The notes beneath the pieces were generated by a model that was not told the DNA's origin, made no database searches, and saw nothing but the letters and a program-made list of their open reading frames with translations. Shown one piece after another: positions 22,448 through 23,263 of a DNA stretch of 64,000 bases. This DNA comes from Escherichia phage EF1-1. Within the stretch, counting starts at the first letter, position 1. Each line of letters begins with the position of its first letter. The position numbers and the translations under genes are program-made. The DNA lies in sequence record PQ571289. One strand, given 5' to 3'.

Positions 22448-23263
22448 TTATTTGTTTAAGTGGTCTTCGACCATTTTAATGAAACCTTCATTGCTGAAGG
22501 CTGTTGCAGCTTTTTCTCGGTAAACAAAAACTCCACGATCTTCATAGAGAAGTGTTTCTTCGTAATTAACTCCAGGGTTAACTACAACCATTTTTGTACC
22601 CATACTAAGCGCAGGGAATAATTCCCAATTAAAATTGATAACTTGGTTTGAACATCCTACTACTACAACCAAATCTTGCATGGTCAAAGTATCGAACAAG
22701 TGAGCCATATCTGCATACAAAGGTGCAGCCTCACCAAAAAATACAACATTAGGCTTCACCCAGTTATAATCATCTATGTTTATACTATTGTAACCAATAT
22801 CTACCAGCGTTTTGTAATCTCCAGGATGCATACGGTAAACTACTTCAGGAAGATATCCGTGCACGTGAATAACAGAATCTCTGTCTACACCTGCTCGCTC
22901 TAATAGATCATCAACGTTTGTCGTCAAGTTTACTACTTGGTTAGGATATTCCTTAAACCACTTTGCTATTTGAATATGTGCGGCATTAGGTTGTACATCT
23001 TTAAGCTCAACACGTCTTTTGTTATAAAATTCGTGTGTTTTGGCATACAAATCCATACCGTTCTCGTCTACACCACCGATCACTGGAAGATCTGGAGATG
23101 TTCTAACACGATAACCTGCTTGGAAAGCTCCAATATCGCAGACTTCTTCTAAATCATATTCTTCCCATAAGGCACGACCACTATCGGTGTCTGTTCGGAA
23201 TGTTCTAATCCCACTATCTGCACTTAAACCTGCACCGCTTACAAAAATCACTCGTCTTGGCAT
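22448..23263 (-). CDS. Sir2-family protein (sirtuin-like)
   Basis: GAGLSADSGIRTFR Rossmann/NAD motif, VIHVHG, VVFFGE; GAGGAGG RBS. Confidence 0.7.
   Translation of the reverse strand: MPRRVIFVSGAGLSADSGIRTFRTDTDSGRALWEEYDLEEVCDIGAFQAGYRVRTSPDLPVIGGVDENGMDLYAKTHEFYNKRRVELKDVQPNAAHIQIAKWFKEYPNQVVNLTTNVDDLLERAGVDRDSVIHVHGYLPEVVYRMHPGDYKTLVDIGYNSINIDDYNWVKPNVVFFGEAAPLYADMAHLFDTLTMQDLVVVVGCSNQVINFNWELFPALSMGTKMVVVNPGVNYEETLLYEDRGVFVYREKAATAFSNEGFIKMVEDHLNK

What the first reader, a model, noticed from the sequence alone, without database searches (positions are those of the whole stretch)
22448..23263. Phage-encoded Sir2-family protein at the end of the minus-strand block
The 271-aa product has the Sir2 Rossmann signature (GAGLSADSGIRTFR) plus VIHVHG and VVFFGE motifs. 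Sir2 domains are best known as NAD-consuming effectors of bacterial defence systems; a phage-borne copy could be a protein deacylase or ADP-ribosyltransferase for host takeover, or an NAD-metabolism counter-defence factor. It sits downstream of two methyltransferase-like genes and a nucleotidyltransferase-like gene.
Basis: partly seen in the sequence, partly recalled or inferred. Interest (0 to 1): 0.6.

Follow-up and report, generated by a model that had tools for sequence, protein, structure and literature searches.

The report
Zinc-less sirtuin of a coliphage
This is a real, intact sirtuin (NAD+-using enzyme) gene of a phAPEC8-like E. coli/Shigella phage, belonging to a phage-specific, zinc-less sirtuin branch that is already annotated in many of the roughly 1,000 phage genomes that carry it and discussed in two papers, but whose substrate (damaged RNA or acylated proteins) has not, as far as I could find, been tested.

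Summary
Window 22448-23263 (-) encodes a 271-aa Sir2-family protein: Pfam SIR2 1e-22, PHROG 2162 8e-105, AlphaFold pLDDT 90.5, and best fold match E. coli CobB.

The window is a Phapecoctavirus, 99% identical to Shigella phage SF1-1. tblastn finds homologues in 983 deposited phage genomes (T5-like, rV5-like, KVP40-like, jumbo), and most of the records listed already call it Sir2.

It is not a defence-type SIR2 NADase (no PADLOC hit) and not a CobB orthologue (86 bits against a 320 cut-off). It belongs to a phage-specific offshoot of class III sirtuins:
- the NAD pocket, the catalytic His and the anion-binding Tyr/Arg pair are kept;
- the four zinc cysteines are lost;
- TQNxD becomes TTNVD, and GTS becomes GCS.

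In rV5-like phages the gene sits inside an RNA-repair cassette, and in most T5-like loci it sits next to a HAD RNA-repair phosphatase. Here it lies about 27 kb from that cassette, which is present at 50.8-56.4 kb.

Function is untested. My best guess (about 0.4) is the NAD+-dependent step of phage RNA repair, as published in 2022. The close rival (about 0.35) is a lysine deacylase. The gene is already known and of modest interest.

The parts
22448..23263 (-). Sirtuin gene (271 aa). Key residues: GAGxS 10-14, F22-R23, Y80/R83 (anion-binding pair), T114-T115-N116-V117-D118 (canonical TQNxD with Gln replaced by Thr), catalytic H135-G136, V173-V174-F175-F176-G177-E178, G203-C204-S205 (canonical GTS). 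There are no Zn cysteines between H135 and K170.
23268..23274 (-). Shine-Dalgarno sequence GAGGAGG, 4 nt upstream of the sirtuin ATG. The ATG lies inside the last codons of the upstream ORF (16-nt overlap), which suggests translational coupling.
   Evidence: read directly from the sequence
23248..23751 (-). Upstream 167-aa ORF (PHROG 9509, function unknown) with a Cys-rich N-terminus and a poly-acidic C-terminal tail. It overlaps the sirtuin start. It is found only in the closest relatives (L005, L006, L008-L010) and is mislabelled 'major head protein' in SF1-1.
22423..22440 (-). Terminator-like hairpin (GGGGC-TTCG-GCCCC followed by a T-rich tail), 8 nt after the sirtuin stop codon.
23758..23782 (-). 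Terminator-like hairpin (11 bp stem) upstream of the 167-aa ORF. Together with the hairpin at 22423-22440 it brackets a two-gene unit (167-aa ORF + sirtuin). A near-consensus sigma-70-like site (11/12 plus TG) lies at 23797-23826.
22132..22404 (-). Downstream 90-aa ORF (PHROG 15991, function unknown). Some records annotate it 'Sir2-like protein', but it shows no similarity to Sir2 or to the other genes labelled 'Sir2-like'.
23798..24448 (-). 216-aa ORF (PHROG 8514, function unknown). It is the most consistently conserved upstream neighbour of the sirtuin in this context type (L005-L010, L040, L053).
24448..25173 (-). Cytosine-C5-type methyltransferase-like gene (PHROG 757).
25521..26462 (-). 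Nucleotidyltransferase-like protein (DUF7277 + DUF7275) with an invariant G5-S6, D26xD28, E70 triad and an invariant His/Asp cluster in the C-terminal domain. Its best fold match is the MenT1 nucleotidyltransferase toxin. The same family lies 2.4 kb upstream of the sirtuin in Vibrio phage nt-1.
50789..56388 (-). RNA-repair cassette of the same phage, homologous to the genes that flank the sirtuin in rV5-like phages: cREC 56032-56388; PHROG 839 55664-56020; metallophosphoesterase 55113-55664; Rnl1-type RNA ligase 54179-55111; P-loop (polynucleotide-kinase-like) kinase 53774-54178; ATP-dependent DNA ligase 51907-53034; MazG-like pyrophosphohydrolase 50789-51514.
60677..62586 (+). Array of 11 phage tRNA genes next to the repair cassette.

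Best explanation
SHOWN: the gene encodes a stand-alone, apparently catalytically competent sirtuin. It belongs to a phage-specific, zinc-less branch derived from class III (CobB/SIRT5-like) sirtuins.

INFERRED, the mechanism I commit to: it is the NAD+-dependent step of the phage's repair pathway for broken RNA, probably tRNA. Host anticodon nucleases leave 2',3'-cyclic phosphate ends. The phage cassette (cREC, metallophosphoesterase, kinase, Rnl1) heals and seals those ends. The sirtuin would use NAD+ to remove a leftover anionic group such as a 2'-phosphate. The phosphate oxygen would attack C1'' of NAD+, releasing nicotinamide. [quoted passage not shown] This parallels both Tpt1/KptA chemistry and the ordinary sirtuin deacylation mechanism. 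The Tyr80/Arg83 pair would hold the anionic group. This is the Iyer/Aravind 2022 prediction applied to this gene; no step has been tested biochemically.
For: Intact enzyme:
- The GAGxS motif, F22/R23, N116/D118, H135-G136 and the FGE motif are invariant across 30 phage homologues and across 37 cluster representatives of the clade.
- The model is confident (pLDDT 90.5), and its best fold match is CobB at E 9e-18.

Anion recognition:
- Y80 and R83 align with CobB 'FYNARR'. This is the Tyr/Arg pair shown to bind the succinyl carboxylate in SIRT5 and Sir2Af1 (PMC4253809).
- The pair is kept in the clade: Y in 36/37 representatives and R in 30/37.

Context:
- In rV5-like and Mydo-like phages the sirtuin lies on the same strand within 0-3 kb of Rnl1 ligase, cREC, a P-loop kinase, a metallophosphoesterase and a MazG-like gene (and about 12 loci).
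- In about 33 of the roughly 36 T5-like loci, a HAD_SAK_2 'RNA repair' phosphatase lies 28-442 nt downstream.
- In Serratia phage BF the sirtuin sits between a 2H phosphoesterase and a Nudix-cREC fusion, near a PIN-PhoH gene.
- These are three unrelated phage groups.
- This window carries the whole cassette at 50.8-56.4 kb, next to 11 tRNA genes.
- cREC (343 records) and HAD_SAK (497 records) occur in the same main phage groups as the sirtuin (983 records).

Other support:
- The clade-defining changes fall in the TQNxD and GTS motifs. I recall both as NAD+-pocket motifs, which would be consistent with altered chemistry at the ribose; this was not checked here.
- Published prediction: PMC9503650, section 3.7.3.
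Against: - In this window the sirtuin is not in the cassette. It lies about 27 kb away, in a different conserved neighbourhood (NTase-like, MTase, 216-aa gene, sirtuin) that persists down to 47% sirtuin identity. The adjacency argument is therefore borrowed from other lineages.
- Linkage within related phages may reflect inherited synteny rather than function.
- The protein is acidic (pI 4.8; K+R 25 against D+E 40), which is unusual for an RNA-binding enzyme.
- From memory, the F22, V117, V173 and FGE positions conserved here are the ones that line the acyl-lysine tunnel, so a protein deacylase fits the sequence equally well.
- The Serratia BF neighbourhood can also be read as a counter-defence / NAD+-salvage island. 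Its 2H protein matches Acb1 best, and it sits with Nampt and an Nmnat-Nudix fusion.
- I know of no sirtuin shown to act on RNA.
- No experimental study of this clade was found in five literature searches.
Confidence: 0.4

Rival explanations
1. It is a protein lysine deacylase of class III type (deacetylase/desuccinylase/demalonylase). It would remodel the acylation state of host or phage proteins during infection, for example by reactivating acetyl-CoA synthetase or keeping nucleotide-binding lysines unmodified. It would release nicotinamide and O-acyl-ADP-ribose.
For: - The closest sequence and structure relatives are experimentally proven deacylases: CobB, Sir2Af1 and SIRT5.
- The Tyr/Arg pair that defines desuccinylases is invariant (PMC4253809).
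- The tunnel and catalytic positions F22, V117, H135, V173 and FGE are conserved.
- An acidic protein is unremarkable for a protein-modifying enzyme.
- In this window the gene is not linked to RNA-repair genes.
- This is the standard database annotation and the hypothesis of PMC5107563.
- NAD+-salvage genes sit beside it in Serratia BF.
Against: - It does not explain the recurrent same-strand embedding between RNA-end-processing genes in three unrelated phage groups.
- The clade has lost the zinc module, and it carries Q-to-T and GTS-to-GxS changes that are invariant as Q and T in all 61 zinc-type relatives.
- It falls far below every curated bacterial deacylase model.
- The host already has CobB.
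Confidence: 0.35
2. It is a counter-defence or NAD-metabolite enzyme. It would act on small NAD+/ADP-ribose-derived molecules (immune signals, toxic ADPr derivatives, NAD-capped RNA), or act as a regulated NADase, to blunt NAD+-based host immunity.
For: - In Serratia BF the gene is flanked by an Acb1-like 2H phosphodiesterase (PF23474, 56 bits), Nampt, an Nmnat-Nudix fusion and a Nudt16-like Nudix-cREC fusion.
- A MazG-like pyrophosphatase lies directly downstream in rV5-like phages.
- The clade-specific substitutions lie in the TQNxD and GTS motifs, which I recall as part of the NAD+ pocket.
- PMC9503650 argues that phage ADPr-processing domains mainly counter soluble ADPr derivatives.
Against: - No similarity to defence or anti-defence SIR2 models.
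- The substrate tunnel and the Tyr/Arg pair look like those of a macromolecule-modifying sirtuin.
- No NAD+-salvage, Macro or Nudix gene lies near it in this window.
- An unregulated NADase would harm the phage's own replication.
Confidence: 0.12
3. It is a protein mono-ADP-ribosyltransferase for host takeover, functionally analogous to T4 Alt/ModA/ModB or to macro-linked SirTM sirtuins.
For: - Some sirtuins ADP-ribosylate proteins (PMC9503650).
- The NAD pocket is intact.
- The gene lies in a long co-directional block with replication and nucleotide-metabolism genes.
Against: - There is no partner Macro-domain gene.
- The catalytic His and class III deacylase signatures are retained.
- No contextual support was found.
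Confidence: 0.08
4. It is a decaying or catalytically dead remnant carried along by synteny.
For: The zinc module is lost and conserved NAD-pocket residues are changed.
Against: - All catalytic residues are invariant across homologues that share only 47-97% identity.
- 983 phage records from several phage groups hold a homologue, 912 of them covering at least 80% of the protein.
- The model is confident and compact.
- Transcription of a Vibrio-phage homologue was reported at 20 min after infection (PMC5107563).
Confidence: 0.03

Closest known systems
Phage sirtuin clade (PHROG 2162; the 'distinct clade of viral sirtuins' of Iyer et al. 2022, PMC9503650; Sir2/CobB of KVP40-like Vibrio phages, PMC5107563)
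   Same: - Full-length PHROG match (8e-105).
- 46-62% identical to the rV5-like and T5-like members, and 36-38% to the Vibrio and Serratia BF members.
- Zinc-less, with the TTNVD motif.
- The same genome carries the cREC / Rnl1 / kinase / phosphoesterase / MazG set.
   Different: Here the sirtuin is detached from the RNA-repair genes. It sits in a fourth neighbourhood type (DUF7275 NTase, MTase, 216-aa gene, sirtuin) that the 2022 survey does not describe. It also carries a roughly 23-residue insertion (residues ~50-72) that about half of the aligned homologues lack.
E. coli CobB and other class III sirtuins (Sir2Af1, SIRT5): NAD+-dependent lysine deacetylases/desuccinylases
   Same: - Best sequence and fold match (1s5p: 1e-18; Foldseek 9e-18, TM 0.69/0.82).
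- Shares GAGxS, FR, N/D, the catalytic His, FGE and the Tyr/Arg anion-binding pair.
   Different: - No Cys4 zinc site.
- The Gln of TQNxD is replaced by Thr, and the Thr of GTS by Cys.
- A four-residue 'TDTxSG' extension follows FR.
- It scores 86 bits against the 320-bit cut-off of the CobB equivalog model.
- No close cellular member was found among 185,579 species genomes.
Tpt1/KptA RNA 2'-phosphotransferase
   Same: Possible functional analogue only. Both are NAD+-consuming, both attack C1'' with an oxyanion and then resolve through the ribose 2''-OH. KptA occupies comparable RNA-repair contexts in other large phages, according to PMC9503650.
   Different: The fold is unrelated (ART fold versus Rossmann sirtuin fold) and there is no sequence similarity. 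The activity of the sirtuin on RNA is untested.
Defence-associated SIR2 NADases (ThsA, DSR1/2, Sir2-HerA, SPARSA)
   Same: Same Sir2 superfamily; they also lack the zinc module.
   Different: - No PADLOC model matches.
- There is no sensor domain or partner gene.
- All top 50 structural neighbours are canonical sirtuins, led by class III deacylases.
- It is encoded by a virulent phage, not a defence island.

Membership tests
Sir2/sirtuin superfamily (Pfam PF02146) | Profile score above the curated gathering threshold | tested here: met
   81 bits against a cut-off of 24, E 1.3e-22
Sir2/sirtuin superfamily (Pfam PF02146) | Rossmann NAD-binding motifs (GAGxS, FR) and the catalytic Asn/Asp/His | tested here: met
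   G10-A11-G12-x-S14, F22-R23, N116, D118 and H135-G136 are invariant in 30 homologues and in 36-37 of the 37 clade representatives
Sir2/sirtuin superfamily (Pfam PF02146) | Sirtuin fold (Rossmann domain plus small domain) | tested here: met
   AF2 pLDDT 90.5; Foldseek match to CobB 1s5p at E 8.8e-18, with the top 50 hits all canonical sirtuins
Sir2/sirtuin superfamily (Pfam PF02146) | NAD+-dependent catalysis | not testable with these tools
   Requires an enzyme assay
Class III sirtuin deacylases (CobB/SIRT5/Sir2Af1) | Tyr-x-x-Arg pair that binds anionic acyl groups | tested here: met
   Y80/R83 align to CobB 'FYNARR' and are invariant in A1; the role of the pair comes from PMC4253809
Class III sirtuin deacylases (CobB/SIRT5/Sir2Af1) | Cys4 zinc-binding module in the small domain | tested here: not met
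   No Cys between H135 and K170; 28 of 39 Thr-type representatives have 0-1 Cys, whereas 68 of 81 Gln-type representatives have 3 or more
Class III sirtuin deacylases (CobB/SIRT5/Sir2Af1) | Curated orthologue models (NCBIfam CobB equivalog/subfamily) | tested here: not met
   NF040867: 86 bits against 320. NF001753: 107 bits against 243
Class III sirtuin deacylases (CobB/SIRT5/Sir2Af1) | Canonical TQN(I/V)D and GTS NAD-pocket motifs | tested here: not met
   TTNVD and GCS here; Q and T are each 61/61 in the zinc-type relatives
Phage-specific sirtuin clade (PHROG 2162 / Iyer 2022) | Full-length match to the phage family profile, with the zinc-less and Thr-variant hallmarks | tested here: met
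   PHROG 2162 at 8.3e-105, residues 2-271; 31 of 37 Thr/Ser zinc-less representatives fall in one NJ clade of 34
Phage-specific sirtuin clade (PHROG 2162 / Iyer 2022) | Sirtuin gene adjacent to RNA-end-processing genes | tested here: not met
   The nearest cassette gene is about 27 kb away; the neighbours are an NTase-like gene, an MTase and genes of unknown function
Phage-specific sirtuin clade (PHROG 2162 / Iyer 2022) | The same genome encodes the cREC / RNA ligase / kinase / phosphoesterase set | tested here: met
   Window 50789-56388
Defence-associated SIR2 NADases | Match to a defence SIR2 model, with a fused or adjacent sensor (SLOG, HerA, pAgo, etc.) | tested here: not met
   Only a spurious PADLOC hit (E 0.0066, 13.8 bits); it is a stand-alone 271-aa protein and its neighbours have no such domains
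Macro-linked ADP-ribosylating sirtuins (SirTM type) | Operonic Macro-domain partner | tested here: not met
   No Macro domain in the 17 neighbouring proteins scanned
Tpt1/KptA RNA 2'-phosphotransferase | KptA/ART-fold homology | tested here: not met
   Pfam returns only SIR2, and the fold is a sirtuin fold. Any relation would be functional analogy, which was not tested.

The most novel reading that the evidence does not exclude
The zinc-less phage sirtuin clade, this gene included, may be the first sirtuin whose physiological substrate is RNA rather than protein. It would act as a Tpt1/KptA analogue, removing 2'-phosphates (or ADP-ribosylating phosphate ends) during repair of nuclease-cut tRNA. 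The class III Tyr/Arg 'succinyl' pocket would be repurposed to hold a phosphate. The idea is published as a prediction (2022) but remains untested.
Probability: 0.35. Interest if true: 0.7.

Novelty: already known. Interest (0 to 1): 0.3.

Why it matters
This sirtuin clade is present in about 2% of deposited phage genomes (983 of 50,697 records). These include T5-like, rV5-like and phAPEC8-like coliphages that are common in phage collections, yet I found no biochemical test of it. If it acts on RNA, it would extend sirtuin chemistry to nucleic acids and add an NAD+-dependent step to phage tRNA repair. That would tie two major arenas of phage-host conflict together: tRNA cleavage and NAD+ depletion. 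If it is a deacylase, it would show that phages rewrite host protein acylation. As a finding in this window, though, it is a correct re-identification of an already annotated gene.

Tried and rejected
1. Are the 'Sir2-like protein' labels on neighbouring genes real? No. The 90-aa ORF here has no similarity to the rV5-like 'Sir2-like' gene (which is MazG-like) or to the T5-like one (HAD_SAK_2). The labels are annotation carry-over.

2. Does replacement of the peptide-binding 'V-x-P' proline (VINF here) mark the clade? No. The zinc-type relatives also vary at that position (P 26, N 10, D 8 of 61). I dropped the argument.

3. Domain fusions among the long relatives: only WG repeats, RHS repeats and GIY-YIG domains. 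Uninformative.

4. Sequence searches of the 313-aa, 216-aa and MTase neighbours against the PDB: nothing significant.

5. Defence-system SIR2 membership (PADLOC) and CobB orthology (NCBIfam): both failed.

6. Searches for NAD+-salvage, Macro or Nudix genes near the sirtuin in this window: none found.

7. Literature searches for experimental work on phage sirtuins: none found (one query was rejected for syntax).

8. Cellular members of the clade: a scan of 185,579 species genomes gave only one distant hit at 26% identity. The scan is pattern-based, so it would only find close relatives.
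Full report
**1. Observation**

The ORF at 22448-23263 on the minus strand exists as described: ATG start, 271 aa, with the quoted motifs at residues 10-23, 131-136 and 173-178. A GAGGAGG Shine-Dalgarno sequence lies 4 nt upstream of the ATG. The ATG overlaps the last 16 nt of an upstream 167-aa ORF, which suggests translational coupling. Terminator-like hairpins at 23758-23782 and 22423-22440 bracket this two-gene unit. A further 90-aa ORF and a bidirectional terminator (22105-22128) close the minus-strand block, so the sirtuin is the penultimate gene, not the last.

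**2. Identity**

- Pfam places the protein in SIR2 (E 1.3e-22, 81 bits against a cut-off of 24).
- PHROGs places it in phrog_2162 'Sir2 (NAD-dependent deacetylase)' over its full length (8e-105).
- The closest solved proteins are E. coli CobB (1e-18), followed by Sir2Af2, Thermotoga Sir2, Sir2Af1 and SIRT5.
- An AlphaFold2 model built on 30 homologues is confident (pLDDT 90.5, pTM 0.87). Its best Foldseek match is CobB 1s5p (E 9e-18, TM 0.69/0.82), and all top 50 hits are canonical sirtuins.

**3. Source and prior annotation**

The window is a Phapecoctavirus (phAPEC8-like myovirus), 99.2% identical over 6 kb to Shigella phage SF1-1. By tblastn, 983 of 50,697 phage records carry a homologue:
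- Phapecoctavirus, 95-99% identity;
- T5-like Demerecviridae, 50-62%;
- rV5-like Vequintavirinae, about 46%;
- KVP40-like Vibrio phages and the jumbo phage Serratia BF, 36-38%.

Most of the annotated records listed already call it Sir2.

Two papers discuss phage sirtuins:
- A 2016 study of Vibrio phages noted the missing zinc ligands, measured transcription at 20 min after infection and proposed a deacetylase role (PMC5107563).
- The 2022 Iyer/Aravind survey defined 'a distinct clade' of viral sirtuins and predicted a KptA-like role in RNA repair (PMC9503650).

I found no biochemical characterisation.

**4. What distinguishes the clade**

In an alignment of 30 phage homologues (56-77% identical), the following are invariant: the NAD-pocket and catalytic residues (GAGxS, F22-R23, N116, D118, H135-G136, FGE) and Y80, R83 and R84.

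Y80 and R83 align with the 'FYNARR' of CobB. This Tyr/Arg pair binds the succinyl carboxylate in SIRT5 and Sir2Af1 and determines specificity for anionic acyl groups (PMC4253809).

Three features separate the clade from its zinc-containing relatives among representatives of 50%-identity clusters (the best 150 listed of 2,172 hits):
- The four zinc cysteines are absent.
- The Gln of TQN(I/V)D is Thr (34 T + 3 S of 37, against Q in 61/61).
- The Thr of GTS is Ser/Ala/Cys (against T in 61/61).

Thr-type and Cys-less states co-occur: 28:8 against 10:68, Fisher p = 1.5e-11, not corrected for phylogeny. In a neighbour-joining tree, 31 of the 37 such sequences fall in one clade of 34.

A pattern-based scan of 185,579 species genomes found no close cellular member.

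**5. Membership tests**

- The protein fails every curated bacterial CobB/deacylase model (for example 86 bits against 320).
- It matches no defence-system SIR2 model in PADLOC.
- It has no Macro-domain partner.

It is therefore a member of the Sir2 superfamily and of the phage clade. It is not a CobB orthologue, not a defence-type NADase and not a SirTM-type enzyme.

**6. Genomic context across lineages**

I verified the published neighbourhoods with Pfam and PHROGs.

- *rV5-like phage isim:* metallophosphoesterase and a P-loop kinase (divergent), then Rnl1 ligase, cREC, sirtuin and a MazG-like gene.
- *T5-like phage:* sirtuin, two small ORFs, then HAD_SAK_2 ('HAD domain in Swiss Army Knife RNA repair proteins').
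- *Serratia BF:* Nmnat-Nudix, Nampt, a 2H phosphoesterase whose best match is Acb1, a small zinc-binding protein, the sirtuin, a Nudt16-like Nudix-cREC fusion, and PIN-PhoH.

The 59 IMG/VR loci plus the two annotated reference loci (isim, 100268_sal2), each taken at ±10 kb, fall into three main groups, with a handful unassigned:
- **A:** the sirtuin is inside the Rnl1 / cREC / kinase / phosphoesterase / MazG cluster (about 12 loci).
- **B:** T-five-like; HAD_SAK_2 lies 28-442 nt downstream in about 33 loci.
- **C:** this window's type. The order is DUF7275 NTase-like gene, 137-aa gene, MTase, 216-aa gene, (167-aa gene), sirtuin, (90-aa gene). It holds in 8 loci whose sirtuins are 47-97% identical to this one.

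Type C is not described in the 2022 survey.

**7. This window carries the repair cassette elsewhere**

Homologues of all the rV5 cassette genes lie at 50.8-56.4 kb on the same strand:
- cREC, 56032-56388;
- metallophosphoesterase, 55113-55664;
- Rnl1, 54179-55111;
- kinase, 53774-54178;
- ATP-dependent DNA ligase, 51907-53034;
- MazG-like, 50789-51514.

The cassette is next to an array of 11 tRNA genes. So the phage has the full toolkit, but the sirtuin has been displaced about 27 kb, to the far end of the same roughly 36-kb co-directional block.

cREC occurs in 343 phage records and HAD_SAK in 497. These records are mostly from the same phage groups that carry the sirtuin.

**8. Neighbours in context C**

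- The 313-aa DUF7277 + DUF7275 protein has an invariant GS / DxD / E nucleotidyltransferase triad and a confident model (pLDDT 90.4). Its best structural match is the MenT1 nucleotidyltransferase toxin (E 7e-4, TM 0.36/0.54), followed by aminoglycoside and lincosamide nucleotidyltransferases.
- The same family lies 2.4 kb upstream of the sirtuin in Vibrio phage nt-1. That recurrence in a very distant lineage is suggestive but thin.
- The methyltransferase is of the cytosine-C5 type.
- The 216-, 167-, 137- and 90-aa proteins have no detectable homology to anything of known function.

**9. Mechanism**

*Shown:* an intact sirtuin catalytic core of class III ancestry, with an anion-binding pair, no zinc site and an altered NAD pocket.

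*Inferred:* the substrate.

The RNA-repair reading is the one I favour, at about 0.4. It rests on same-strand linkage to RNA-end-processing enzymes in three unrelated phage groups. It also rests on the close parallel between sirtuin chemistry and Tpt1 chemistry: an oxygen nucleophile attacks C1'', and the ribose 2''-OH then resolves the adduct. The products expected from such a reaction (ADP-ribose cyclic phosphate) would be natural substrates for the linked 2H, cREC, Nudix and MazG enzymes, as argued in PMC9503650.

Several points count against it:
- The protein is acidic (pI 4.8).
- Adjacency is absent in this phage.
- From memory, the F22, V117, V173 and FGE positions conserved here are the ones that line the acyl-lysine tunnel, so a desuccinylase or deacetylase fits the sequence equally well (about 0.35).
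- The Serratia BF neighbourhood (Acb1-like 2H, Nampt, Nmnat) also fits a counter-defence or NAD-metabolite role (about 0.12).

**10. Verdict**

The gene is already annotated and discussed in the literature. Comparison with defence-type Sir2 NADases is not supported, and nothing in this particular copy is unusual for its clade except its separation from the RNA-repair cassette. Interest is modest. The open question, protein or RNA substrate, belongs to the whole clade and needs an enzyme assay, not more sequence analysis.

Noticed in passing
window 50789-56388 (-): A complete RNA healing-and-sealing cassette: cREC, PHROG 839 (function unknown), metallophosphoesterase, Rnl1-type RNA ligase, a stand-alone P-loop polynucleotide-kinase-like protein, ATP-dependent DNA ligase and a MazG-like pyrophosphohydrolase. 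It is syntenic with the rV5-like cassette, except that the sirtuin is missing from it.
   Followed up: yes
window 60677-62586 (+): An array of 11 tRNA genes (Met x2, Arg, Ser, Tyr, Asn, Thr, Gly, Gln, Pro, Ile) about 4 kb from the RNA-repair cassette and on the opposite strand.
   Followed up: partly
window 25521-26462 (-); L065:1843-2604: The DUF7277 + DUF7275 protein is an apparently active nucleotidyltransferase (invariant GS / DxD / E triad) with an invariant His/Asp cluster in its helical C-terminal domain. Its best fold match is the MenT1 toxin. The family occurs 2-2.5 kb upstream of the sirtuin both here and in the very distant Vibrio phage nt-1. Its function is unknown and worth its own study.
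   Followed up: partly
window 22132-22404 (-); L003:9779-10492; L004:9145-9660: Three unrelated genes downstream of phage sirtuins are annotated 'Sir2-like protein' or 'Sir2 (NAD-dependent deacetylase)' in public records. They are a 90-aa protein of unknown function, a MazG-like pyrophosphohydrolase and a HAD_SAK_2 phosphatase. PHROG 18062 even carries the Sir2 name for the HAD protein's C-terminal half. This is annotation carry-over.
   Followed up: yes
window 23248-23751 (-): A 167-aa ORF translationally coupled to the sirtuin. It has a C-x2-C-x2-C motif near the N-terminus and an extremely acidic tail (DLDDEDYDDYEEEECQDE). It is labelled 'major head protein' in SF1-1, which is implausible. 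It is restricted to the closest relatives.
   Followed up: partly
L064:4281-4727 (Serratia phage BF): The 148-aa gene annotated 'RNA ligase' beside the BF sirtuin is a 2H phosphoesterase that matches the anti-CBASS Acb1 family (56 bits) better than the generic 2'-5' RNA ligase family. It sits with Nampt and an Nmnat-Nudix fusion, so the 'RNA-repair' neighbourhood of the 2022 survey could be a counter-defence island.
   Followed up: partly
window 23797-23826 (-) and 23758-23782 (-): A near-consensus sigma-70-like promoter (TTGACA, 18 nt, TATAGT, with an extended -10 TG) lies immediately upstream of a strong terminator-like hairpin. Transcripts starting there would run straight into the hairpin. 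This could be attenuation or a chance match.
   Followed up: no
window 29189-29932 (-) and 33749-34558 (-): A second calcineurin-like metallophosphoesterase (annotated NinI-like Ser/Thr phosphatase) and a PhoH-like ATPase lie in the same co-directional block. PhoH-like genes also lie within a few kb of the sirtuin in the T5-like phage and in Serratia BF.
   Followed up: no
sirtuin residues ~50-72 (window ~23050-23115): A lineage-variable insertion of about 23 residues in the small helical domain. It is present in Phapecoctavirus and T5-like members and absent from about half the aligned homologues, including those named as Klebsiella KpS8, Raoultella Ro1 and Erwinia KEY phage proteins. It is why Pfam and the PDB searches report the match in two stretches.
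   Followed up: partly
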